In this document: piece after piece, positions 1,241 through 12,927 of the stretch | Numbering within the stretch: position 1 is the stretch's first letter | How the letters are laid out: every line of letters starts with the position of its first letter | NCBI GenBank assembly: GCA_026991575.1 | Contig: JALXBF010000058.1 | Span: 49,080 to 69,079, forward strand | Source: Planctomycetota bacterium | GTDB lineage: Bacteria > Planctomycetota > Planctomycetia > JALXBF01 | Direction: 5' to 3' | Length of the DNA stretch: 20,000 bases | Program-made: the position numbers and the translations under genes | The notes under the pieces: model-generated | The model's input: only the letters and a program-made list of their open reading frames with translations | Told to the model about the DNA's origin: nothing | The model's database searches: none

Positions 1241-4200
1241 TTACGAACAGCCCATCGAGTTTCCGCAATTCAAGCACCGGAAGCAACTGCCACTGCGCAC
1301 CGTGATGGCACCGCAATTATCGCACGGCGGCGCGTCGCTCTGAAGCTGGGCCAACCAGGCAGATGGTGTGTAGGCCGGCGTTTGGCTCGGTTGCCCCTTC
1401 GGCTCCTGAGTTGACCCGCGCGCGGTGGCGGCGGCGTCTCGCTGATGCATTTGCTCTTCGGTCCGGTCCGGGGTCGGCGTGCTGGCAAGCTCGGCGCGGT
1501 GCGGCACCGTCTTCTCCCGGTAACCGGGCACGAAGCTAATGCCAAGCCAGCGGAAGATGTAATCCACGATGCTTTTCGCGTACGGGATGTCCGGATTTTC
1601 GGTGAAGCCGGACGGCTCGAACCGGACATGCTCGAATTTCCGCACCAGCGCCTCCAGCGGCACACCGTACTGGAGTGCGATGCTGGTCAGGACGCCGATC
1701 GTGTCCATCAGCCCGCCGATTGTGCTCCCTTCCTTTGCCATGTTGATGAACAGTTCGCCGGGGCGGCCGTCGTCGTAGAACCCGACGGTGATGTAACCTT
1801 CGTAGCCGGCGATCGAGAACTTGTGTGTGATGGACCGGCGCGTGTCGGGCAGCCGCTCGCGACGGGGCCCCTGCGGAATCAGCTCACGCTGCACTACCTT
1901 GGGCCTGACCGGTTGCTGCCTGCGTGCCCGCTCGATAACGACCTCCTCGGGCCGCTTACCGGCAACACGAGTCTCGACGTCGCGTTCGGCCTGTTGGCGG
2001 TCCTCTTCGTTGCTCACGCTGGTCGACACCGGTTGACTGCCCTTGGAACCGTCCCGGTAAATGGCCAGTGCCTTCAAGCCGAGCCGCCAGCCTTCGATGT
2101 AGGCGTTCATGATGTCCTCGACGGTCGACTTGTTCGGCATGTTCACCGTCTTGGAGATCGCTCCTGAGATGAACGGCTGCACTGCGGCCATCATCTTCAG
2201 GTGAGCTGAATAGTGTATGCATCGGCCGCCTCCCGGGGGTGGGAACGCACAGTCGAACACGGGTAGATGCTCTTCTTTCAGTCCCGGCGCCCCCTCGATC
2301 TTGTCGTGTTGCTCCAGGTACGCGACGATCTCCTCGATGCTGGCCTTGTCGTAGCCGAGCCGTTCCAGTGCCATCGGCACGGTGCGGTTCGGAATGCGGA
2401 GCATGCCACCGCCGGCCAACAGCTTGTACTTGATCAGCGCGATGTCCGGCTCGATGCCCGTCGTATCGCAGTCCATCATGAAACTGATCGTGCCTGTAGG
2501 CGCAACAACGGTGGCCTGAGCGTTGCGATAGCCGTGCCGCCGCCCCAGCTCCAGACAGCGGTCCCAGACGCTGCGTGCCGCTTCGCGCAGGTAGTCCGGG
2601 CAACTGGAGTGGATCCGCTCGACGGCATCGCGATGCATCTGCATCACCTTCAGCATCGGCTCGCGGTTCTTCGCAAACTCCTCGAACGGCCCCATGTGGC
2701 CAGCAACCTCGGCCGAAGTCAGGTACGCCTGACCGGTCATGATCGCGCTGATGGCACCCGCCAGCGCACGTCCCTCGTCGGAGTCGTACGGCAAACCGAG
2801 CGACATCAGCAGCGAGCCGAGGTTGCTGAAGCCAAGCCCGAGCTGCCGGAACTTGTGCGCGTTGACCGCGATCTTCTCGGTCGGGTAGCTCGCGTTGTCG
2901 ACGATGATCTCCTGAGCCAGGATGAAGATCCGCACCGCGTTGCGGAAACTTTCCACATCAAACGTGCCATCGTCGCGGCGGAACTTCATCAAGTTGAGGC
3001 TGGCCAGGTTACAGGCGCTATCGTCCACGTGCATGTACTCGGAGCAGGGGTTAGAGCTGTTGATCGGGCCGCTGTTCGGGCAGGTATGCCACCGCTGAAT
3101 CGTGTCCTCGTACTGGACCCCGGGATCGCCGCACACCCACGTGCCCCAGGCGATCTTGCGCATCAGCTCGCGGGCGTCGTACGTGTCCATCACCTCGCCG
3201 GTAGTCACCGCCCTGGTCTGCCACTTGCGGCCATGGATCACCGCCTCCATGAACTCGTCGGTGACGCGCACCGACAGGTTCGCGTTCTGGAAGAAGACCG
3301 AACTGTACGCTTCGCCGTTGAAGTCCGCACTGTAGCCACACTTGATCAGGCAGTGCGCCTTTTTCTCCTCCTTCGCCTTGCACTCGATGAACTCCACGAT
3401 ATCCGGGTGCCAGATCCTCAGTGTCTGCATCTTGGCCGCCCGCCGCGTCTTGCCGCCGGACTTGACCACTGAGGCGATCGCATCATAGACGCGCATGAAC
3501 GAGACGGGGCCGCTGGGACGGCCACCGCCGGAGAGTTTCTCCTTGCTGGAGCGCAGCGGGGTCAGGTCCGTACCGGTGCCGGAACCATACTTGAACAGCA
3601 TTGCTTCGCTCCGGGCCAGCTCCATGATCGATTCCATGTTGTCCTCGACCGACTGGATGAAGCAGGCCGAGCACTGAGGGTACTCATACGGGGTCTCCAC
3701 CCGCACAGCCATACGCGTCTGCGCATCCCAGCGATAGTTCGTTCCCTTGCCCTTGACGCCATACTGGTGATACAGCCCGACGTTGAACCAAACGGGTGAA
3801 TTGAACGACCCGTACTGGTGCAGGCAGAGCCAGGTGAGCTCGTGGTAGAAGCGTTCGGCGTCTTCGCGGGTGGCAAAGTAGCCGTCCTTGATTCCCCAGT
3901 CGGTGATCGTTCGGGTGACGCGGTGGATGAGCTGCTTGACGCTATGTTCCCGTTCGTCCGTGCCCGGCTCGCCGTAGAAGTACTTGTTGGCCACGACGTT
4001 CGTTGCCAGACGGCTCCAGAACTTGGGCACTTCGCAGTTCTTCTGCTCGAAGATGACGTTACCCTGCTCGTCACGGATCACCGCGGTACGAGTCTCCCAT
4101 TCGACCTCATCAAACGGATGCACCCCCTCGGTGGAAAAGTACCGTGGGATCTCAAGCCCCCCCTTGCGGTCCCGCCGAGCGTCCAGGGCCGTTCGAATGC

Positions 4201-4270
4201 GTTCTAGGCGGTCGACTTCGTGGGTCGTTACCGCACCGTTGTTCCGCCGCGTCTCGTGCCGTTCACTCAT
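1241..4270 (-). CDS. nrdJ: Vitamin B12-dependent (class II) ribonucleotide reductase with fused C-terminal TSCPD/Zn-ribbon region
   Basis: FNSPVWFNVG, PQCSACFI, SGGKTRRAAKM, SNPCSE (thiyl-radical Cys motif), APTGTISFMMDCDTTGIEP, QPFISGAISKTVN; C-terminal CDNC...CLNC...GCS. Start at ATG 4270 (MSERHETRR) preferred, because the upstream extension runs through the operator/promoter. Confidence 0.95.
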   Translation of the reverse strand: MSERHETRRNNGAVTTHEVDRLERIRTALDARRDRKGGLEIPRYFSTEGVHPFDEVEWETRTAVIRDEQGNVIFEQKNCEVPKFWSRLATNVVANKYFYGEPGTDEREHSVKQLIHRVTRTITDWGIKDGYFATREDAERFYHELTWLCLHQYGSFNSPVWFNVGLYHQYGVKGKGTNYRWDAQTRMAVRVETPYEYPQCSACFIQSVEDNMESIMELARSEAMLFKYGSGTGTDLTPLRSSKEKLSGGGRPSGPVSFMRVYDAIASVVKSGGKTRRAAKMQTLRIWHPDIVEFIECKAKEEKKAHCLIKCGYSADFNGEAYSSVFFQNANLSVRVTDEFMEAVIHGRKWQTRAVTTGEVMDTYDARELMRKIAWGTWVCGDPGVQYEDTIQRWHTCPNSGPINSSNPCSEYMHVDDSACNLASLNLMKFRRDDGTFDVESFRNAVRIFILAQEIIVDNASYPTEKIAVNAHKFRQLGLGFSNLGSLLMSLGLPYDSDEGRALAGAISAIMTGQAYLTSAEVAGHMGPFEEFAKNREPMLKVMQMHRDAVERIHSSCPDYLREAARSVWDRCLELGRRHGYRNAQATVVAPTGTISFMMDCDTTGIEPDIALIKYKLLAGGGMLRIPNRTVPMALERLGYDKASIEEIVAYLEQHDKIEGAPGLKEEHLPVFDCAFPPPGGGRCIHYSAHLKMMAAVQPFISGAISKTVNMPNKSTVEDIMNAYIEGWRLGLKALAIYRDGSKGSQPVSTSVSNEEDRQQAERDVETRVAGKRPEEVVIERARRQQPVRPKVVQRELIPQGPRRERLPDTRRSITHKFSIAGYEGYITVGFYDDGRPGELFINMAKEGSTIGGLMDTIGVLTSIALQYGVPLEALVRKFEHVRFEPSGFTENPDIPYAKSIVDYIFRWLGISFVPGYREKTVPHRAELASTPTPDRTEEQMHQRDAAATARGSTQEPKGQPSQTPAYTPSAWLAQLQSDAPPCDNCGAITVRSGSCFRCLNCGNSMGCS

Positions 4271-4388
4271 GACTTGCCCCCAAAACGCTAACGTCCTTGG
4301 TTCGTACCAGCGGCCCTTCACCCAATCGTAGGCCACCGAAGCGGGCCCCCGGCCGTGCCTGCTGGCGGGTACGCCGGCGGCACCGCAG

Positions 4389-4436
4389 GCCCCAGATATT
4401 GGGCTATGGCCGCCCCACATCCCCAATATCTTGGGG
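4389..4436. promoter_or_regulatory. Tandem NrdR boxes (4389-4404 and 4421-4436)
   Basis: GCCCCAGATATTGGGC and CCCCAATATCTTGGGG are 16-bp pseudo-palindromes matching the core of the NrdR consensus acaCwAtATaTwGtgt. Their starts are 32 bp apart and they lie directly upstream of nrdJ. Confidence 0.88.
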
Positions 4437-4455
4437 ATCTGCGTCCGGCTGTCAA
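4428..4455 (-). promoter_or_regulatory. Putative sigma70 promoter of nrdJ
   Basis: Perfect -35 TTGACA on the minus strand (4450-4455). The expected -10 position (CAAGAT-like, about 4428-4433) falls inside the distal NrdR box. Confidence 0.6.
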
Positions 4456-4553
4456 GTCCCCACCGGCAGAATCGCTCAACCCCCGCCGAAACCCAACCTT
4501 GCGGCCGGAGACCACCGGCATCGGCGAATACGGCCGTTTTCCCGGTGCGGCCC

Positions 4554-4583
4554 TTGACATCCGGCCCCGCGGCGGGTCAGAAT
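4554..4583 (+). promoter_or_regulatory. Putative sigma70 promoter of the histone gene
   Basis: TTGACA (4554-4559), 18 nt, CAGAAT (4578-4583). Confidence 0.55.
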
Positions 4584-4714
4584 CGGTCAGACAGCCGGAT
4601 TTGGCGGTTTCCGGGCGGATTCGCGACTGCTGCATCCACTGAGGAGTTTTGCTCAGGTTCGATGGCACGGCCCGGTGGTTTCGTTTGCGAGCTAGCTCGA
4701 AAGGAGGTGTCGCT

Positions 4715-4912
4715 ATGGCAAAGAAGAAAGCAGCAAACCGCGAACCGCTTGTCGTAGGCTCCAAGGTGAAGGCGTTCATCGGCTCGAACAACATGCGGAT
4801 GGACGGGCAACTGCTAGAGGCCCTGAACGCAAAGGTGTACGAGCTGCTTGAAGCTGCCATCAAACGGTGTCAGGCGAACGGACGCTCCACGGTTCGTCCG
4901 CACGATCTGTAA
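4715..4912 (+). CDS. Bacterial histone-fold protein (singlet, 65 aa)
   Basis: Strong SD AAGGAGGT (4701-4708) before ATG 4715. MAKKKAANREPLVVGSKVKAFIGSNNMRMDGQLLEALNAKVYELLEAAIKRCQANGRSTVRPHDL has the LVVxSKVK alpha1 signature, a long amphipathic alpha2 and the C-terminal R-x-T-V-x-x-x-D-L histone L2/alpha3 motif. Confidence 0.88.
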   Translation: MAKKKAANREPLVVGSKVKAFIGSNNMRMDGQLLEALNAKVYELLEAAIKRCQANGRSTVRPHDL

Positions 4913-4964
4913 GGTCCACACATGAGTTGATTCGACACCGCCCGGAACCGCCCTCCCGGCAATG

Positions 4965-5005
4965 GCCCGGCACCGCGACCGCTGCCGGGCTCTGTTCTTT
5001 TTTTT
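4965..5005 (+). terminator. Intrinsic terminator of the histone gene
   Basis: Stem GCCCGGCA (4965-4972) / TGCCGGGC (4983-4990), followed by TCTGTTC and T8. Confidence 0.75.
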
Positions 5006-5042
5006 CCCGGCGACGGTAGCCACCTCGCTCAGGCCGCGCATG

Positions 5043-5069
5043 AAAACAGCCCGGCGCTGCCACCGGGCT
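5043..5069 (-). terminator. Putative intrinsic terminator of rplU
   Basis: Stem AGCCCGG (5048-5054) / CCGGGCT (5063-5069), followed on the minus strand by GTTTT; about 30 nt downstream of the rplU stop. Confidence 0.5.
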
Positions 5070-5096
5070 CTCTCTGTTGCCGCTAACTGGAACCGG

Positions 5097-5441
5097 CTAG
5101 CTGTTGGACTCCTGGGAAACGGCTCCGCCCAGCTCGATCGCCTCGATCACCACACGCGTCGCGCGCTGGCGGTGCCCTTTACGTCGTCGGTAGTTTTTCC
5201 TTCGCTTGAACTTCTCCACGTAGATCTTCGGCCCCTTGACATGCTCCAGCACCCGGCCGACGACGCGTGCCTCGCTAACCACGGGCTGGCCCACCAGGAC
5301 CTGCTCGGCGCTGCGGCACAGGAGCACGCGGTCAAAGACCAGCTCATCGCCCGGGTTGAGCCGTTCGCGGTAGTCGACGTCCAGCACCATCCCACGCTCG
5401 ACCCGGTACTGGTGGCTACCGTCTTCGATCACCGCATACAT
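5097..5441 (-). CDS. rplU: 50S ribosomal protein L21 (bL21)
   Basis: MYAVIEDGSHQYRV...GQPVV...KGPKIYVEKFKRRKNYRRRKGHRQ, the hallmark bL21 motifs; SD GGAG upstream. Confidence 0.96.
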   Translation of the reverse strand: MYAVIEDGSHQYRVERGMVLDVDYRERLNPGDELVFDRVLLCRSAEQVLVGQPVVSEARVVGRVLEHVKGPKIYVEKFKRRKNYRRRKGHRQRATRVVIEAIELGGAVSQESNS

Positions 5442-5491
5442 CGGTCGCAGTCTCCGAATGGCAAGCCGTTCGTTCAGGCAACAGGCTCGGA

Positions 5492-5520
5492 ATTATGGGC
5501 GGTCGGAGCGTGATGTTCAA
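5492..5520 (-). promoter_or_regulatory. Putative sigma70 promoter of rplU
   Basis: Minus strand TTGAAC (5515-5520), 17 nt, CATAAT (5492-5497). Confidence 0.65.
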
Positions 5521-5590: not shown

Positions 5591-5781
5591 GAACCTCTGC
5601 CTTGTGCGTGATAGACGGTATTTTGACGAACCGACACCTGTCCCGCAGGGAGCCTACATGGCCCGGGGAGGCGTATAGCCGCGGTCGTGGCGGCCGTGGA
5701 TCACGCGAGCCGGGTCTGCGGCGCCCACTTGGCTTGCGGGTTCTCAAAACGCCGTCTACACGGCAAATGGCGGAGGTTTTT
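5591..5781 (+). ncRNA. ssrS: 6S RNA
   Basis: About 190 nt that fold by hand into a long rod: AACCUCUGCC/GGCGGAGGUU, UAGACGGU/GCCGUCUA, UUUUGA/UCAAAA, GGCCCGG/CCGGGUC, CCGCGGUCG/CGGCCGUGG. The G-U wobbles favour the + strand. It carries motifs I recall from Bacillus-type 6S RNAs (UUUGAC-GAAC, GGGAGCC, GGCRCCCAC, GCGGGUUC, ACGGCA). U-tracts follow at 5777-5789. Confidence 0.85.
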
Positions 5782-8032: not shown

Positions 8033-8878
8033 CTACGAGCCACTCGCTTCGGCCAGGAACAGGCCATACTCCATCGCACCACGACGGTACGCCTCAAGGA
8101 TGACCGGGAAACCGTCCAGGAAGGCAACGAACTCCTTGCCGGCCAACCGAGCAAGCCAGCGTGCAGGCCAACCGGACGTGCGCTGAAGACACAGCTCCCA
8201 TGTGCGTGCCACCTGGTGCCCCAGCAGCTCAACACGGCGCACCTTCAAGCCTGCCGCGGTCATCCAATCGCGGTACTCCTCTGCCGTCGCAAGCGACGGG
8301 CACAGGAACGCGTCACAGACTCGCTCAACCAGACGCCGCCTTTCCGGATCCCGTTCGGCCGTGGTTGTGGCCAGCCACGCGCAGATGGCCAGATGGCCCC
8401 CGGGGGCTAGCCACCGCGCAACGCGTCGGAAGAACGCCTGTTTGCCAAAGAGGTGCTCGGTGCACTCGATCGACAGGACCAGGTCGAAGCTGGCATCGTC
8501 AAACCAGACCTCCTCCGCATTCTCGGTTCGGAAACGGGCCCTGTGGGACAACCCACGCCAGCGTGCCGCCAGTCCTGCCCAGCTGCATTGCACGGGGCTA
8601 AGCGTGATGCCGGTTACGTGACAGCCGAAGTGCCGGGCCAGATACAGGGCCGTGCCTCCCAGCCCGCAGCCGACGTCCAGCACGCGTGCCTCTGCTCCCA
8701 GCGGCACGCCGCGCAAGAGCCGGGCAATCAACGCCCGCTGTGCGTCATGGGGCAAGCGATCCCGATCCCACACGCCGTGGTGAATGTGCTCCCCCCAGAG
8801 CAACCGATAAAACAACGATCCCAGGTCGTAGTGCCACCGAATCGCCGCACACCGGACCGTAGCCGTGGCAGAAATCAT
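8033..8878 (-). CDS. Class I SAM-dependent methyltransferase, gamma-tocopherol/sterol methyltransferase-like
   Basis: IRWHYD...FY..LWGEHIHHG.W, VLDVGCGLGG, VTGITLSPVQ, FDLVLSIECTEH, LAPGG. SD AAGGAGG precedes ATG 8878 (MISATAT). Confidence 0.85.
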   Translation of the reverse strand: MISATATVRCAAIRWHYDLGSLFYRLLWGEHIHHGVWDRDRLPHDAQRALIARLLRGVPLGAEARVLDVGCGLGGTALYLARHFGCHVTGITLSPVQCSWAGLAARWRGLSHRARFRTENAEEVWFDDASFDLVLSIECTEHLFGKQAFFRRVARWLAPGGHLAICAWLATTTAERDPERRRLVERVCDAFLCPSLATAEEYRDWMTAAGLKVRRVELLGHQVARTWELCLQRTSGWPARWLARLAGKEFVAFLDGFPVILEAYRRGAMEYGLFLAEASGS

Positions 8879-8912
8879 CGGCGCATTCCTCCTTGCTCTG
8901 CTCCGCCCCCCC

Positions 8913-9617
8913 TCATCGGCCTCGTTCCTTTCGCGCAGCACGCACCGCGGGCTTCCTCAGGACAATCACCCCGTAAATGTCCAGATGATCGGCAACGCCA
9001 ATCGCACCGAACAGCCTCGTATAGGGCCGGATCCCGTAATGGCTCTGCAACAGCCGAAAACCACCACGGAGCACCAGCCGGTCGGGCTGATTCGTGGGAT
9101 ACACCCCGGCTTCGAACGATAGCGGCCGGGTGGTACCGTGCAGCGTAAGCTGGCCGCCGATGCGGTAGACCACGCGGGCATCCCTGAGCCAGCTGGTCCG
9201 CGGCTTGGTCGGCTCCAACGACCGGATCTGGTAGCGGGCGGTCGGGTAATGTGCCACGTCGAGGATGTCTGGACCGAGCATGATCTGGGTCACCTCACGC
9301 TGCTCCGCAACACTGCGGTCCGGCCGTAGCCCGACCGCGCGCCGCGCATCGGGACCGTCCGCATAAAAGCGACGCATGTCAAATACCAGCTCCCCTCCCT
9401 GGACTCCCGGTCCAAATTCGATCTTGCCCTCCTTCAGCACGCCGCGGACCCCGTGCTCATGACCAAGTCCCGTGGCATACACGTGCACGAAAACGCGGCT
9501 GGCGCGCGTGTCCACGTACCATGTGCCCTCCGGCAGCCCAGTGACCTGAGTCGGGGCGGGGACCGCAACCGCAGCCACCACAGTCCAAACGAACAACGTG
9601 CAGCTCAGCGGAAACAT
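8913..9617 (-). CDS. YceI-family lipid/polyisoprenoid-binding protein with N-terminal signal peptide
   Basis: SD GGAGGT before ATG 9617; hydrophobic N-terminus; WYVD...S.V, 'LDVAHYPTARY', 'GQLTLHGTTRP' and 'S.YGI.P' are YceI-like motifs. Confidence 0.8.
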   Translation of the reverse strand: MFPLSCTLFVWTVVAAVAVPAPTQVTGLPEGTWYVDTRASRVFVHVYATGLGHEHGVRGVLKEGKIEFGPGVQGGELVFDMRRFYADGPDARRAVGLRPDRSVAEQREVTQIMLGPDILDVAHYPTARYQIRSLEPTKPRTSWLRDARVVYRIGGQLTLHGTTRPLSFEAGVYPTNQPDRLVLRGGFRLLQSHYGIRPYTRLFGAIGVADHLDIYGVIVLRKPAVRAARKERGR

Positions 9618-9696
9618 CTCGCGCACCTCCTGGTTCAATGACCACTGCGTTGGAGCTCCTGCAACGTGCTCCTCACTGGCACGCGCCAACGACAGG

Positions 9697-9740
9697 CTAA
9701 CATTGCCGGCGGCCCAGGTAAATACTAAAATGTTAGTAAT
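9697..9740. promoter_or_regulatory. Promoter with overlapping palindromic operator in the divergent region of the PKS cluster
   Basis: + strand TTGCCG (9703-9708), 17 nt, TAAAAT (9726-9731). Inverted repeat TACTAA-aatg-TTAGTA (9723-9738) covers the -10. A second inverted pair is CTAACATT (9697-9704) / AATGTTAG (9729-9736). Confidence 0.6.
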
Positions 9741-9914
9741 CCGCCGGTCCCCCCTGGCGTCCGCGGCGGGACTGACGCGAAGCTGAAGCTGTTTGAGGTT
9801 CGGCTGTTGCCCGATGCGGCGCGACCGGGAGCGGTTCAGCACGCGGGGCGCCACGACGAACGGCGTAGAACGGCGCATTGCCCTGGCCGCTGCACCGCAT
9901 GGAGGACGCCTTCG

Positions 9915-10673
9915 ATGGCCTGGCTCACCTGGCAGGATCGGCCTGAGACGCTGACCGAGATCCTCGACGACCCAAACGTTCACGATCAAATCCGTGTTCG
10001 GATTCTCAGTCAATTGCCGCGCGTGAACCGCTGGCTCGGCGGCTGGCGTGCGTTGCGGGCAGAACTGCAGCATGTTCATCAGAAGATCGGCCTTGGACGG
10101 CGTGTGCTCGATGTGGGCTGCGGTGTAGGGGATTTGTGTGAGTCGATGCAGCGCTGGGCTGCGCGGATTGGCAATCCCGTCGAGGTGGTAGGCATCGACT
10201 TGAGCCGCGGCCTCCTGCGCGCCGCATCAGGGCGGTCCGTGCTGGCTGTGCGTGCCGACGGGTTCCGACTACCGTTTCCTGACCGCTGCTTCGATCTGGT
10301 TACCGCCAGCATGTTCCTGCACCACTTCACCGGCAACGACCTGCACCGCCTGTTCGGCGAGCTGTGCCGCGTCGCCGATCGCGCGGTCGTGATCAACGAG
10401 CTGTATCGCAGCCGTGTCGCGTGGCTGGGCTGGCGGCTGTGGAGTCTGTTTTTCACGGACGACGAAATCATCCGGTACGACGGTGCGGTTTCGGTACGCA
10501 AGGGATTTATCGCTAGCGACCTACTAGAACTAGGCCAATCCCAGGAAGGCTTCCACTGGACCGTTCGCAGGCATCCTGGCTTTCGAATCTGCTTGACCGG
10601 CACACGGTCTGATGTGGCCCGGCCGGCGGGCCGTGCTGAGTGCGCCCCTGCCGTAGCGGCGTCGAGCGGATGA
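9915..10673 (+). CDS. SAM-dependent methyltransferase of the type associated with type III PKS genes
   Basis: SD GGAGGA at 9901; E.LDD...L..VNRWLGG, VLDVGCGVGD, GIDLS, FDLVTASMFLHHF, INELYRS, YDGAVSVRKGF. The stop overlaps the next ATG (ATGA). Confidence 0.85.
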   Translation: MAWLTWQDRPETLTEILDDPNVHDQIRVRILSQLPRVNRWLGGWRALRAELQHVHQKIGLGRRVLDVGCGVGDLCESMQRWAARIGNPVEVVGIDLSRGLLRAASGRSVLAVRADGFRLPFPDRCFDLVTASMFLHHFTGNDLHRLFGELCRVADRAVVINELYRSRVAWLGWRLWSLFFTDDEIIRYDGAVSVRKGFIASDLLELGQSQEGFHWTVRRHPGFRICLTGTRSDVARPAGRAECAPAVAASSG

Positions 10674-11851
10674 TGGTTGCGGAGGCGAGCATGGAGGTAA
10701 CCGAGGAGGTATGCTGTGATGTCCTGGTTGTCGGCGCTGGACCGGCCGGTTCGGCGGCAGCCGTGGAACTGGCCCGCGCAGGGTTCGATGTCCGCGTGGT
10801 CGAAGCCAAGCGGTTTCCACGTCCGAAGGTCTGCGGTGAGTTCCTGGCAGCGGGTGCATGGCCGGAGCTTGAGGCGCTCGGCGTAGCGGAAGTGATCCGG
10901 CAGGACGCACAGCCGATCCGCTTTCTGCGGCTCTGGTTTTCCCCGGCGCGCCCGGTGCTCGTGCCATTGGAGAAGCCGAGCGGGACAGGCCCGGTCGGCA
11001 TCACGCGCGACCAGCTGGACCGGCGGCTGGCCCGGGCAGCGCAGGCGTGCGGTGCCACCGTCGACTGGCGAACTCGCGTCGTGCACGTAGAACGATCTGG
11101 TGGGCTGGTTCGCTCGGTCGTCGCATGGCGTGGCGGGCGGTTGATCCGTTATCGACCGCGGTGGTTGGTCGCCGCCGACGGCCGCTACTCCGGTGTGGTC
11201 CGTGCGACCGGGCGGCTGTGCCGGCGACGGCGGCTGGGACGCTGTGCGGTGAAGTTACACGTAGCGGCACCAACCGGTGGCTGGCCGGCCGCCGTGGAAC
11301 TCTACGCGCTCGGTCGTGGTTACTTTGGCACGGCGCCGGTGGGCGCTGGTCTGATTAACCTGTGTGGCCTGTTGCCCACCGAGCTCCTTCGGCGGCACCG
11401 AGGCCGGGTGCTTCGTGCGCTGGCCGAGGCGTTCGGTTCCTGGCCGCGCTTGCAGACTTTGGTGGTTTCTGAGCAGCGTGTGATCGAGTTGTGCACGATG
11501 CCGGAGGTCAGCTTCCAGATGGCTCGCCCCGCGTGCGCGAACGTGCTTTACGTGGGCGATGCACTGGCGACCATGGAGCCGGCCACCGGGCAGGGCATCA
11601 CGGCTGCCATCCGCTCTGGCCGCGAAGCTGCCCGCAGCTTGCGTAGATGGTGGCGGCATCGTCACCGCGTTCAGGCGGGCTATCTGGCAGGCTGGTACGC
11701 CGCATGTAGCGCGAAACGGACCATCAGCGGCCTGTGTGGTGTGGCGTTCGATCACGCCGATGCGGTAAGCGGCTTGCTGCGGCGGACCGCAAGCCTCTTC
11801 GGTACCGCCCCTGCTCTGGTCCGGCAACTGTATCGTTTCGCTCAGCTGTGA
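10670..11851 (+). CDS. NAD(P)/FAD-dependent oxidoreductase (geranylgeranyl reductase/flavin monooxygenase-like)
   Basis: DVLVVGAGPAGS (GxGxxG), PRPKVCGEFL, VAADGRYS, YVGDA...P.TGQGI..A. Start is either ATG 10670 (ATGA coupling) or ATG 10691 (GGAGG upstream). Confidence 0.85.
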   Translation: MMVAEASMEVTEEVCCDVLVVGAGPAGSAAAVELARAGFDVRVVEAKRFPRPKVCGEFLAAGAWPELEALGVAEVIRQDAQPIRFLRLWFSPARPVLVPLEKPSGTGPVGITRDQLDRRLARAAQACGATVDWRTRVVHVERSGGLVRSVVAWRGGRLIRYRPRWLVAADGRYSGVVRATGRLCRRRRLGRCAVKLHVAAPTGGWPAAVELYALGRGYFGTAPVGAGLINLCGLLPTELLRRHRGRVLRALAEAFGSWPRLQTLVVSEQRVIELCTMPEVSFQMARPACANVLYVGDALATMEPATGQGITAAIRSGREAARSLRRWWRHRHRVQAGYLAGWYAACSAKRTISGLCGVAFDHADAVSGLLRRTASLFGTAPALVRQLYRFAQL

Positions 11852-11871
11852 GCGTCAGACAAGGGACAAGC

Positions 11872-12927
11872 ATGGAGCCTGTAAGCATCGTCTCAGTGGG
11901 CACGGCACAGCCGGAACATGCATGGCGTCAGGAGGAGCTGCGTCGGATGTACCACGAAGTGGCCACCGCGGAGCTTCGGCCGGCTGCTGTGCGGCTCATG
12001 GACCGTGTATTCCGCGAGGAAGCGGGGATTGAGCGGCGTGCGCTGGCGTGCGCCGACCCGAGGACACTGCCGCGTGAGTCTCCGGCGGACGCGCAGCGAC
12101 GGTATGAGCAGGCCGCACCCGCGCTGGCAGCCCGTGCCCTGCAGGAGGCTTTAGCCGAAGCCGCCTGGCCTGCCCATCGGGTCGCGGCCCTGATTTGCTG
12201 CACGTGCACCGGCTATCTGTGTCCGGGGATCAGTTCCTATCTCGTCGAACGACTCAGCATGCCCGCGGCGACGCGCTGCTACGATCTGGTCGGCATGGGC
12301 TGTGGTGCATCGCTGCCCGGATTGGATCTGGCCCGGCAACTGGCACCGGAGGTCGCGCCGGCAGGGGTGGCCGTCGTCGCCGTCGAAATCTGCAGCGCCA
12401 CGGCGGTCTTCGGCGAGGAGCCGGACTTGATCGTATCGAATGCTCTGTTCGCCGACGGAGCTGCCGCTGCGCTGGTGTCGGCCGAAGCTCGTGGTCCTGT
12501 GCGGCTGCTGGCATACGCCAGCGAAATCCGGCCCCTGTACCGCGATCGGCTCAGGCTGGTGCACGACGGGACTCGGCTCCGCAACCGGCTGGATCGCTCG
12601 GTGCCCGAGCTTGCCGCTGCGGCAGCCGACGCGGTGGTTGCCCGGCTGCTGGCCGGGGCCGATCGAACCCCGGCGCAGATCGAGCACTGGCTGGTGCATC
12701 CGGGGGGGACGAGAATCTTGGAGGCGGTTCAGGCTACGTTCGGCCTGACGGCTAGCCGTCTTCGCTACTCGTACGACGTGCTCCGCTGGTGCGGCAACAT
12801 GTCATCGCCGACGTCGCTGTTCGTGCTGAAACGTTTCCTGGAGAGTGAGCCGGCGCCGGGCCTGGGTGTGTTGCTCGCGTTCGGAGCGGGATTCAGCTGC
12901 TACGCGAGCTTGTTCCGCGTCCCGTGA
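11872..12927 (+). CDS. Type III polyketide synthase (chalcone synthase-like)
   Basis: Catalytic triad contexts GMGC (Cys), HPGG (His) and GNMSS (Asn); also TCTGY..PG, VEICS, ALFADGAAA, AFGAGF. Confidence 0.93.
   Translation: MEPVSIVSVGTAQPEHAWRQEELRRMYHEVATAELRPAAVRLMDRVFREEAGIERRALACADPRTLPRESPADAQRRYEQAAPALAARALQEALAEAAWPAHRVAALICCTCTGYLCPGISSYLVERLSMPAATRCYDLVGMGCGASLPGLDLARQLAPEVAPAGVAVVAVEICSATAVFGEEPDLIVSNALFADGAAAALVSAEARGPVRLLAYASEIRPLYRDRLRLVHDGTRLRNRLDRSVPELAAAAADAVVARLLAGADRTPAQIEHWLVHPGGTRILEAVQATFGLTASRLRYSYDVLRWCGNMSSPTSLFVLKRFLESEPAPGLGVLLAFGAGFSCYASLFRVP

What the first reader, a model, noticed from the sequence alone, without database searches (positions are those of the whole stretch)
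4715..4912. Stand-alone bacterial histone with a short basic N-terminal tail
Seen: a 65-aa ORF with an ideal SD, its own promoter candidate and an intrinsic terminator, which suggests a highly expressed monocistronic gene. It contains LVVGSKVKAFI...L...LN..VY.LLE.AIKR...N.RSTVRPHDL. Known: this pattern matches my recollection of bacterial histones (Bdellovibrio Bd0055/HBb and especially the Leptospira histone), including the RxTxxxxD 'R-D clamp', ending right after a very short alpha3. Inference: a histone-type chromatin protein, plausibly of the face-to-face tetramer class, in a probable planctomycete, a phylum with condensed nucleoids. The MAKKKAANR extension could be a DNA-binding or modifiable tail. 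Pipelines usually label such genes hypothetical.
Basis: partly seen in the sequence, partly recalled or inferred. Interest (0 to 1): 0.85.

Follow-up and report, generated by a model that had tools for sequence, protein, structure and literature searches.

The report
Face-to-face histone of a planctomycete
This small gene really does encode a bacterial histone, of the tetramer-forming "face-to-face" type already solved in Leptospira and already reported as common in planctomycetes, so the call is correct but the case is fairly ordinary.

Summary
The 65-aa ORF at 4715-4912 (+) is real. It has a strong Shine-Dalgarno site, a promoter-like site and a terminator hairpin, and it lies between genes on the other strand.

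It is a singlet, alpha3-truncated histone of the bacterial face-to-face (FtF) class.
- Closest solved relative: HLp of Leptospira perolatii (phmmer E 7e-12; family profile E 2.6e-25; model TM 0.96, rmsd 0.7 A).
- All residues that define the class are present and invariant in 51 of 51 relatives: S16-K17, R51, N55, R57-x-T59-xxxx-D64.
- A four-copy model rebuilds the HLp dimer-dimer interface, although that may be recall of solved structures.
- Most likely mechanism: a constitutive homotetramer that binds DNA without sequence preference and wraps about 60 bp.

FtF histones, their presence in Planctomycetota and their positive N-tails were published in 2023-2025.

My counts:
- The family is in 186 of 401 sampled genomes of the phylum, but in only 2 of 41 nearest relatives.
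- HU is in 399 of 401, so this histone is not the only nucleoid protein.

Expression and DNA binding are untested.

The parts
4554..4583 (+). sigma-70-like promoter candidate TTGACA-18 nt-CAGAAT; it would give a leader of about 125 nt
   Evidence: 10 of 12 positions, 1 site found against 0.1 expected. TTGACA is kept in the sister-genus locus, where TTGACA-17-GAAAAT can be read. The transcription start is inferred, not measured.
4700..4709 (+). Shine-Dalgarno site AAAGGAGGTG
   Evidence: Kept in G001. AAGGAGGT followed by 4-8 nt and ATG occurs only 17 times in the 4.96-Mb genome, against 8 for the reversed control pattern. Of 14 gene starts examined in the window, this is the only one with an SD core of 5 nt or more (some of those starts are guesses).
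4715..4912 (+). CDS of the 65-aa FtF-class histone (stop included). Basic tail residues 1-11, alpha1 15-24, L1 25-32, alpha2 33-54, L2 55-61, alpha3 62-64.
4964..5005 (+). intrinsic-terminator-like hairpin (about 4964-4991) followed by a T-rich tail with T8 at 4998-5005
   Evidence: Not flagged by the scanner. A separate minus-strand terminator-like hairpin at 5069-5048 faces it and would serve rplU.

Best explanation
The gene encodes a singlet, alpha3-truncated histone of the bacterial face-to-face (FtF) class. Two chains form a handshake dimer through crossed alpha2 helices. Two dimers then join face to face through the end of alpha2, loop L2 and the one-turn alpha3, using R51, N55, R57, H63, D64 and L65, to give a closed homotetramer that exists without DNA. 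The tetramer carries a ring of basic and polar groups: the G15-S16-K17 'paired ends of helices', K19, G31 in L1 and S58-T59 in L2. This ring contacts the phosphate backbone without sequence preference, so that about 60 bp wrap around it, as shown for HLp of Leptospira perolatii. The R57-D64 salt bridge holds L2 in shape. The disordered Lys-rich N-terminus (MAKKKAANRE) probably adds non-specific electrostatic affinity. The gene is a stand-alone transcription unit with one of the strongest ribosome-binding sites in the genome. It works beside HU rather than in its place. Shown here: the fold, the class residues and their conservation, purifying selection and the gene anatomy. Inferred by homology: the tetramer in solution, DNA wrapping, abundance and the role of the tail.
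For: Sequence searches:
- phmmer against PDB: HLp 9qt0 E 7e-12, gapless over residues 6-64; HTkC 9f2c 9.1e-07; HBb 8cmp/8fvx 0.017-0.018.
- Profile of 51 relatives: HLp 2.6e-25, HBb 1.4e-12, HTkC 3.4e-12, and nothing else at E<=0.01.

Fold:
- AF2 model pLDDT 87.9, helices 15-24, 33-54 and 62-64, residues 1-5 disordered.
- Foldseek top hits: HLp (TMt 0.96, rmsd 0.7 A, 45% identity), HTkC (0.91), HBb (0.83), then eukaryotic and archaeal histones.

Class residues:
- Invariant in 51 of 51 relatives: S16, K17, R51, N55, R57, T59, D64.
- These equal HLp S14, K15, R49, N53, R55, T57, D62 (numbering offset 2, from the alignment) and the FtF-defining R48/N52/R54/T56/D61 of Schwab 2024.
- HBb has S and D where this protein has R51 and N55 (alignment). 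This fits the published rule that dimer histones lack them.

Four-copy model:
- Score 0.88, best of 3 controls 0.00.
- The mark was reached by 20 of 30 proteins solved as pairs of one chain and by 1 of 23 solved as single chains.
- Runs agree in at least 93% of contacts; partner pLDDT is at least 87.
- The dimer-dimer contacts are residues 50-51, 54-55, 57, 61 and 63-64, the HLp interface positions.

Selection: 50 of 65 residues are identical to the sister-genus orthologue, with dN/dS 0.097.
Against: - No binding, oligomer or expression data exist for this protein, and no RNA run is listed.
- Pfam does not call it: DUF1931 scores 18.5 bits against a cut-off of 21.8, and CBFD_NFYB_HMF scores 12.5 against 21.4.
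- Two of the nine HLp DNA-contact positions are not kept: K21 is G23 and T27 is M29.
- The tetramer model may be recall of the solved HLp and HTkC tetramers. The tool's calibration held two copies, not four.
- dS of 1.9 is near saturation, so the dN/dS ratio is rough.
- HU is present in this genome and in 399 of 401 sampled genomes of the phylum. The histone was not found in 39 of 39 genomes of the other families sampled in the class. It is therefore dispensable for the planctomycete cell plan, and 'principal chromatin protein' cannot be carried over from Leptospira.
- Hu 2025 could not exclude bridging in vivo.
Confidence: 0.85

Rival explanations
1. It is a dimer-only histone that bends DNA, like HBb/Bd0055 of Bdellovibrio, and forms no tetramer.
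For: HBb is a clear relative: profile E 1.4e-12, model TMt 0.83. Planctomycetota also hold 'bacterial dimer' histones according to Schwab 2024. The tetramer here is only a prediction.
Against: R51 and N55, the two residues that the dimer class lacks, are present and invariant in 51 of 51 relatives. HBb has S and D there. HLp scores about 40 bits higher than HBb against the family profile. The four-copy model places the dimers on the HLp interface.
Confidence: 0.07
2. It forms the tetramer but mainly bridges two DNA duplexes, or coats DNA, rather than wrapping about 60 bp.
For: Each of the two HLp-DNA crystal forms taken alone hints at bridging, and the authors say they cannot rule out bridging in vivo. 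Two HLp contact residues are changed here, G23 and M29.
Against: For HLp, MD runs started from the bridging state moved to wrapping. MNase fragments of 35-72 bp, TPM and topoisomerase assays all fit wrapping. The remaining contact positions and the whole tetramer interface are kept here.
Confidence: 0.12
3. It is a histone-fold protein with a role outside chromatin, such as a protein adaptor or a specific regulator, as proposed for DUF1931 proteins.
For: Best Pfam hit, though below threshold, is DUF1931. Schwab 2024 notes that DUF1931 histones lack DNA-binding residues. HU is already present.
Against: The protein is a 65-aa singlet, not a 138-position pseudodimer. The true DUF1931 gene of this genome is a separate locus scoring 168 bits. 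The DNA-contact residues S16-K17, K19 and T59 are invariant or nearly invariant. Net charge is +6 by count of the sequence. The nearest relative binds DNA in crystals and in E. coli.
Confidence: 0.04

Closest known systems
HLp, FtF histone of Leptospira perolatii (PDB 9QT0, 9QT1, 9QT2; Hu et al. 2025, PMC12701072)
   Same: Same length class (63 against 65 aa) and a gapless alignment. 45% identity in the Foldseek alignment. Same three-helix fold with a one-turn alpha3. It shares the RD clamp, the conserved tetramer residues (R49/N53/R55 = R51/N55/R57), the S-K motif and a short disordered basic N-terminus.
   Different: HLp S52, T61 and F63 are A54, H63 and L65 here. The DNA contacts K21 and T27 are G23 and M29. 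Leptospira has no HU and no second histone. This genome has one HU and one DUF1931 pseudodimer. The hlp neighbourhood (smc, map, DUF350) is not seen here, where the neighbours are nrdJ and rplU.
HTkC, archaeal FtF histone of Thermococcus kodakarensis (PDB 9F2C)
   Same: Same alpha3-truncated fold and tetramer class: phmmer E 9.1e-07, model TMt 0.91, 41% identity.
   Different: It belongs to the archaeal cluster, and it has no N-terminal tail. Archaeal FtF histones generally lack tails. Profile score is 49.6 bits against 91.7 for HLp.
HBb / Bd0055, bacterial dimer histone of Bdellovibrio bacteriovorus (PDB 8CMP, 8FVX, 9EZZ, 9F0E)
   Same: Alpha3-truncated singlet with the S-K motif and the RD clamp.
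   Different: HBb is strictly dimeric and bends DNA. It has S and D at the positions of R51 and N55. Identity to the model is 32%.
DUF1931 pseudodimeric histones (PF09123; Aquifex 1R4V and Thermus 1WWI, as named in Hu 2025)
   Same: Histone fold, with a weak sub-threshold profile match over residues 33-65.
   Different: These are two fused folds of about 138 positions and lack DNA-binding residues. This genome has a genuine one elsewhere, at G000:C158:1017-1430.
Archaeal nucleosomal histones (HMfB; PF00808)
   Same: Handshake dimer, RxTxxxxD motif and L1-L2 DNA contacts.
   Different: These have a longer alpha2 and a 10-residue alpha3, a four-helix-bundle interface, and polymerise into hypernucleosomes only on DNA. 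The PF00808 score here is 12.5 bits against a cut-off of 21.4.

Membership tests
alpha3-truncated prokaryotic histones (Schwab 2024) | Histone fold: alpha1-L1-alpha2-L2-alpha3 | tested here: met
   AF2 model pLDDT 87.9 with helices 15-24, 33-54 and 62-64. The top nine listed Foldseek rows are chains of HLp, HTkC and HBb; most lower rows listed are eukaryotic, archaeal or viral histones or histone-fold proteins.
alpha3-truncated prokaryotic histones (Schwab 2024) | alpha3 of only 3-4 residues | tested here: met
   The model helix is 62-64. The protein ends one residue after the clamp Asp, as in 51 of 51 relatives.
alpha3-truncated prokaryotic histones (Schwab 2024) | alpha2 shorter than in nucleosomal histones | tested here: inconclusive
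   The model alpha2 is 22 residues and aligns without gaps to HLp. The paper calls HLp's alpha2 one turn shorter than HMfB's. I did not measure HMfB myself.
Face-to-face (FtF) histones | RxTxxxxD motif (RD clamp plus L2 Thr) | tested here: met
   R57, T59 and D64 are present and invariant in 51 of 51 relatives.
Face-to-face (FtF) histones | Dimer-dimer residues R48 and N52 of the FtF profile (HLp R49, N53) | tested here: met
   R51 and N55 are invariant in 51 of 51 relatives. The correspondence comes from the gapless alignment to 9qt0 and.
Face-to-face (FtF) histones | Conserved alpha1 Lys (profile K16; HLp K15) within the bacterial S-K motif | tested here: met
   S16-K17 is invariant.
Face-to-face (FtF) histones | Closed homotetramer through the alpha2 C-terminus, L2 and alpha3 | tested here: met
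   This is in silico only. The four-copy model scored 0.88, with the best of 3 controls at 0.00. The mark was reached by 20 of 30 proteins solved as pairs of one chain and 1 of 23 solved as single chains. Runs agree in at least 93% of contacts, and partner pLDDT is at least 87. Interface residues are 50-51, 54-55, 57, 61 and 63-64. Like complexes are solved (9QT0, 9F2C), so the pass may be recall. No solution measurement exists.
Face-to-face (FtF) histones | Sequence-independent DNA binding with wrapping of about 60 bp | not testable with these tools
   This is known for HLp only. It needs EMSA, MNase and TPM on the purified protein.
Bacterial dimer histones (HBb type) | Absence of the R48/N52 dimer-dimer residues; no confident oligomer above a dimer | tested here: not met
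   R51 and N55 are present, and a tetramer is modelled with confidence. HBb has S and D at these positions.
DUF1931 pseudodimeric histones (PF09123) | Two fused histone folds over the 138-position profile, at or above the 21.8-bit cut-off | tested here: not met
   18.5 bits, with only residues 33-65 matching profile positions 21-53. The protein is a single fold of 65 aa.
Archaeal nucleosomal histones (PF00808) | Match at or above the 21.4-bit cut-off, and a full-length alpha3 | tested here: not met
   12.5 bits. The alpha3 is three residues long.

The most novel reading that the evidence does not exclude
In this hydrothermal-vent lineage the FtF histone is one part of a multi-component, histone-based chromatin kit that works beside HU. 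The parts would be (1) the FtF tetramer; (2) a DUF1931 pseudodimer that I found in both genomes of this family but in none of the other 400 sampled genomes of the phylum; and (3) a separately encoded 54-aa Lys-rich KKKTAA-repeat peptide with the same very strong ribosome-binding site. That peptide would supply in trans the long Lys-rich tail that other planctomycetes carry fused to the histone.
Probability: 0.07. Interest if true: 0.6.

Novelty: new member of a known kind. Interest (0 to 1): 0.3.

Why it matters
Bacterial histones are a young field. Only HBb and HLp have been studied at the bench. In the held library, all 14 papers that hold both 'planctomycet' and 'bacterial histone' mention planctomycete histones only in passing, judged from titles and abstracts and from the passages I read in three of them.

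This gene adds nothing new in kind, but my counts frame a useful question. The family is in about half of the sampled planctomycete species (186 of 401), always next to HU (399 of 401). It is missing from the sampled relatives in the window's own class (0 of 39 outside its family), several of them single-contig genomes. Planctomycetes would therefore be a good place to ask what an FtF histone adds to an HU-based nucleoid.

For annotation: Pfam misses this protein, and sources mostly leave relatives unnamed or call them 'hypothetical'.

Tried and rejected
- **Expression.** The look-up of sequencing runs listed no RNA holder, only DNA runs of vent metagenomes. I did not lay reads, so expression is untested.
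- **Conserved neighbourhood.** tblastn of 7 window neighbours against the 80 related loci (up to 5 kb on each side) gave 0 of 80 hits for every neighbour. Synteny (rplU-histone-nrdJ) holds only in the sister genus G001. A link between the histone and ribonucleotide reductase is therefore rejected as a general feature.
- **Origin of the gene.** In an ML tree of 82 rows by 56 columns, window and G001 form a pair (99/95) on a long stem (0.52). The base of the tree is unresolved, and 30 of 76 inner branches are open. Vertical descent with losses cannot be told apart from transfer.
- **Strong SD as a marker of high expression.** The 16 other AAGGAGGT sites include 13 that open ORFs of 43 aa or more. 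Among them are Usp, an HPr-like protein, cytochrome c', FlgD and a GFO/IDH oxidoreductase. This is not a clean set of abundant proteins, so the SD shows a strong start site and nothing more.
- **Upstream TTG at 4649 (87-aa form).** Rejected, because the SD and all relatives support Met at 4715.
- **Overlapping minus-strand ORFs 4318-4863 and 4577-4810.** Treated as GC-rich noise. I did not search them.
- **PDB hit 7dww.** This is a designed double-psi barrel, E 0.00077 over residues 21-47 in two short stretches. I took it as a chance match. It did not return with the family profile at E<=0.01.
- **Three large hits of the representative search.** P0058, P0144 and P0164 are secreted repeat proteins, not histones.
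- **The 54-aa Lys-rich ORF.** It found nothing in 40 relatives with this query. Its low complexity makes that blank weak.

Full report
**1. The observation**

The window has an ATG at 4715 and a TAA ending at 4912.

- AAAGGAGGTG lies at 4700-4709, with GGAGG ending 7 nt before the ATG.
- The promoter scan found one site in 4300-5500: TTGACA-18-CAGAAT at 4554-4583, matching 10 of 12 positions, against 0.1 expected in shuffles.
- Downstream, the RNA fold shows a GC-rich hairpin at about 4964-4991, followed by UCUGUUC and U8.
- The terminator scanner did not flag this hairpin. The 96-nt segment as a whole folds no better than shuffles (z -0.65). I call the terminator plausible, not proven.
- The upstream gene is a class II ribonucleotide reductase and the downstream gene is rplU. 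Both are on the minus strand, so the ORF has to be its own transcription unit.

**2. It is a real gene under selection**

- A word-indexed search of 5.8 billion proteins gave 51 relatives at E<=0.001 among 53 candidates, at 50-77% identity.
- An exhaustive phmmer over 1.84 billion cluster representatives gave 385 hits at E<=0.001 and 29 at E<=1e-10.
- A scan of one genome for each of 185,579 species gave 374 confirmed relatives among 453 pattern matches. Of the 80 loci kept, 72 carry a planctomycete label, 5 another phylum and 3 'uncultured bacterium'.
- The only other genome of the window's family (G001, another genus) has an orthologue in the same rplU-histone-nrdJ arrangement.
- That orthologue shares 50 of 65 residues, with dN/dS 0.097. 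dS is 1.9, near saturation, so the ratio is rough.
- The SD and the TTGACA hexamer are kept there too.

**3. What it is**

Pfam does not call it. DUF1931 scores 18.5 bits against a cut-off of 21.8, and CBFD_NFYB_HMF scores 12.5 against 21.4.

Against all PDB sequences the matches were as follows.

| PDB entry | Protein | E-value |
|---|---|---|
| 9qt0 | HLp, Leptospira perolatii (gapless over residues 6-64) | 7e-12 |
| 9f2c | HTkC, archaeal FtF histone | 9.1e-07 |
| 8cmp / 8fvx | HBb, Bdellovibrio | 0.017-0.018 |

- Two non-histone chains also appeared. One is a designed barrel (7dww, E 0.00077) that matches two short stretches and did not return with the family profile; I take it as chance. 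The other is 2mpu (RBP1, E 0.27), too weak to count.
- With a profile of the 51 relatives, HLp reaches 2.6e-25 (91.7 bits). HBb reaches 1.4e-12 and HTkC 3.4e-12. Nothing else passes E 0.01.
- An AlphaFold2 model built on that alignment has mean pLDDT 87.9. It shows helices 15-24, 33-54 and a three-residue helix 62-64, with residues 1-5 disordered.
- The Foldseek top hits are HLp (TM 0.96 by target, rmsd 0.7 A over 56 columns, 45% identity), HTkC (0.91) and HBb (0.83). Eukaryotic, archaeal and viral histones follow.

**4. Which class of histone**

I read passages of Schwab et al. 2024. They define alpha3 histones by an alpha3 of 3-4 residues. They define the face-to-face (FtF) class by a closed tetramer and by profile residues R48, N52, R54, T56 and D61 plus a conserved alpha1 Lys. 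'Bacterial dimer' histones lack R48 and N52.

I read sections 6, 7, 9 and 13 of Hu et al. 2025. They show that the HLp tetramer uses R49, S52, N53 and R55 against F63, T61 and R55. Of these, R49, N53 and R55 are conserved in bacterial FtF histones.

The PDB chain runs two residues ahead of the paper's numbering, so query numbers equal HLp numbers plus 2.

- Here the corresponding residues are R51, A54, N55, R57, H63, D64 and L65.
- In the 51-sequence alignment the invariant columns are exactly S16, K17, R51, N55, R57, T59 and D64.
- HBb has S and D at the R51 and N55 positions.

A four-copy model scored 0.88, with the best of 3 controls at 0.00.

- The mark was reached by 20 of 30 proteins solved as pairs of one chain and by 1 of 23 solved as single chains.
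- Runs agree in at least 93% of contacts, and partner pLDDT is at least 87.
- The scored copy touches one copy through a handshake interface centred on residues 37, 41 and 45. It touches a copy of the other dimer through 50-51, 54-55, 57, 61 and 63-64, the HLp interface.

HLp and HTkC tetramers are solved, and the calibration held two copies, not four. This pass therefore shows likeness and may be recall.

I file the protein as a bacterial FtF histone. It does not fit the dimer class, the DUF1931 pseudodimers or the nucleosomal histones.

**5. How it most likely works**

By homology with HLp, it forms a stable homotetramer that binds DNA backbone without sequence preference and wraps about 60 bp.

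| HLp contact residue | Residue here |
|---|---|
| A13 | G15 |
| S14 | S16 |
| K15 | K17 |
| K17 | K19 |
| K21 | G23 (not kept) |
| T27 | M29 (not kept) |
| G29 | G31 |
| T56 | S58 |
| T57 | T59 |

- Net charge is +6: 12 Lys or Arg against 6 Asp or Glu, counted.
- Hu et al. could not exclude bridging in vivo, so that remains a rival for the binding mode.

**6. The tail**

- In 49 of the 51 relatives where my core motif was found, the segment before the core is 4-45 residues long, with a median of 10. It is 11 here.
- Net charge of that segment is positive in 31, zero in 14 and negative in 4.
- Long forms are Lys-rich repeats, for example in P0006, P0031 and P0037 and in L042, L063 and L069.
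- Start codons of metagenomic gene calls are uncertain, so these lengths are approximate.
- In HLp the first six or seven residues are invisible in the crystals.

The tail here is an average member of a described feature. Its function is untested.

**7. Host and distribution**

- The neighbouring RarA has its named best hits in Gemmataceae, at 64-66% identity.
- Earlier notes of this scan on the same genome also call it a planctomycete.
- The DNA is held by hydrothermal-vent metagenome runs.

| Group searched | Protein | Genomes with a match |
|---|---|---|
| 41 nearest genomes, including the window's own | FtF histone (family profile) | 2 of 41, the two of family f1; none in the 39 of other families (35 of these over 90% complete) |
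| Phylum sample | FtF histone | 186 of 401 (124 of 244 high-quality genomes; 143 of 288 genera) |
| Phylum sample | HU | 399 of 401 |
| Window's own genome | HU | one match |

- Unlike Leptospira, which lacks HU, planctomycetes keep the histone beside HU.
- Hocher et al. 2023 found histone folds in 1.86% of 18,343 bacterial genomes and noted their persistence in Planctomycetota.
- The ML tree could not resolve the origin of the f1 gene. Window and G001 pair at 99/95 on a long stem, and the base is open.
- No neighbour of the window gene recurs in any of the 80 related loci.

**8. Expression**

- The exact context AAGGAGGT followed by 4-8 nt and ATG occurs 17 times in the 4.96-Mb genome, against 8 for the reversed control.
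- Of 14 gene starts examined in the window, only this one has an SD core of 5 nt or more.
- The other strong-SD genes are a mixed set.
- No RNA data could be had.

'Highly expressed' remains an inference.

**9. Novelty**

But the class, its tetramer, its presence in Planctomycetota and its basic tails are all in print. I rate it a new member of a known kind.

Two things are still open:

- No planctomycete histone has been studied at the bench. Of the 14 held papers with both 'planctomycet' and 'bacterial histone', none has it as its subject, judged from titles and abstracts and from the passages I read in three of them.
- It is not known what an FtF histone adds to an HU-based nucleoid.

Supplementary figures of Schwab 2024 and Hocher 2023 on tails and on planctomycete distribution were not read. 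They may already contain counts like mine.

**10. Side observations that feed the boldest reading**

- The genome also has a genuine DUF1931 pseudodimer gene scoring 168 bits. It was found in 2 of 41 relatives, again only family f1, and in 1 of 401 genomes of the phylum sample. Named relatives at about 50% identity are in Actinomycetota and Thermus.
- One of the 17 strong-SD sites opens a 54-aa KKKTAA-repeat ORF with a TTGACC-16-TATACT promoter-like site. It resembles the long tails fused to the histone in other planctomycetes. It was not found in 40 relatives with that query.
- Whether these three proteins work together is speculation.

Noticed in passing
G000:C158:1017-1430 (-), locus L003 1005-1454 (-): This is a genuine DUF1931 pseudodimeric histone gene: 149 aa, 168 bits against PF09123. 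It was found only in the two genomes of the window's family among 41 relatives, and in 1 of 401 genomes of the phylum sample. Named relatives at about 50% identity are Actinomycetota and Thermus. Its contig in G000 is short, but G001 carries it at position 23403-23813 of its contig C112.
   Followed up: partly
G000:C122:34442-34603 (-), locus L105 1940-2104 (-): A 54-aa ORF made almost wholly of KKKTAA-type repeats. It has the same strong SD context as the histone and a TTGACC-16-TATACT promoter-like site about 160 nt upstream. It looks like an H1-like peptide or a free-standing 'tail'. It has no Pfam match and was not found in 40 relatives with this query.
   Followed up: partly
proteins P0107, P0094, P0052 (metagenome representatives, no context): FtF-like histone folds occur fused to an RRM_1 domain (P0107, P0094) and as tandem doublets (P0052 and some 30 others with two matched stretches). 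All three proteins that I read begin with what looks by eye like a signal peptide, which would mean exported histone-fold proteins. I ran no signal-peptide predictor. No paper in the held library holds both 'RNA recognition motif' and 'prokaryotic histone', and the main text of Schwab 2024 has no RRM mention.
   Followed up: partly
window 5591-5780 (+): A 6S RNA gene (Rfam RF00013, 57.9 bits against a gathering score of 46.4, full length) lies between rplU and rarA.
   Followed up: no
window 4390-4403 and 4421-4436: Two palindromes, CCCCAGATATTGGG and CCCCAATATCTTGGGG, lie about 32 bp apart centre to centre and 120-166 nt upstream of nrdJ. Both are kept in G001, and the genome has an NrdR gene (193 bits). 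They look like tandem NrdR boxes serving nrdJ, not the histone. The box consensus is recalled from memory and was not tested.
   Followed up: partly
window 1241-4426 (-): The longest ORF of the class II ribonucleotide reductase starts at a TTG at 4426. The start shared with G001 is the ATG at 4270 (MSERHE...). The longer form would swallow the NrdR-like boxes.
   Followed up: partly
loci L010, L015, L025: A small clade of the histone family has an acidic, Ala/Pro-rich N-terminus (MFEDAPA...) in place of the usual MAKK basic tail.
   Followed up: no
loci L049/L052 and others in the tree: Records titled 'uncultured Pirellulales' carry histones identical to, or interleaved with, those of Sedimentisphaerales and Phycisphaerae records. 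The order labels of these MAG records cannot be trusted for counting.
   Followed up: no
window 8033-12927: A methyltransferase, a YceI-like protein, an FAD monooxygenase and a type III polyketide synthase lie together. This may be a small alkylresorcinol-type lipid cluster, a reading recalled from memory and not tested.
   Followed up: no
proteins P0058, P0144, P0164: Three proteins of 846-1024 aa matched residues 14-47 of the histone in 4-7 stretches at E down to 5.8e-14. They are secreted repeat proteins (DUF5074, Calx-beta, Por_Secre_tail), so they are false positives of the single-sequence search.
   Followed up: yes
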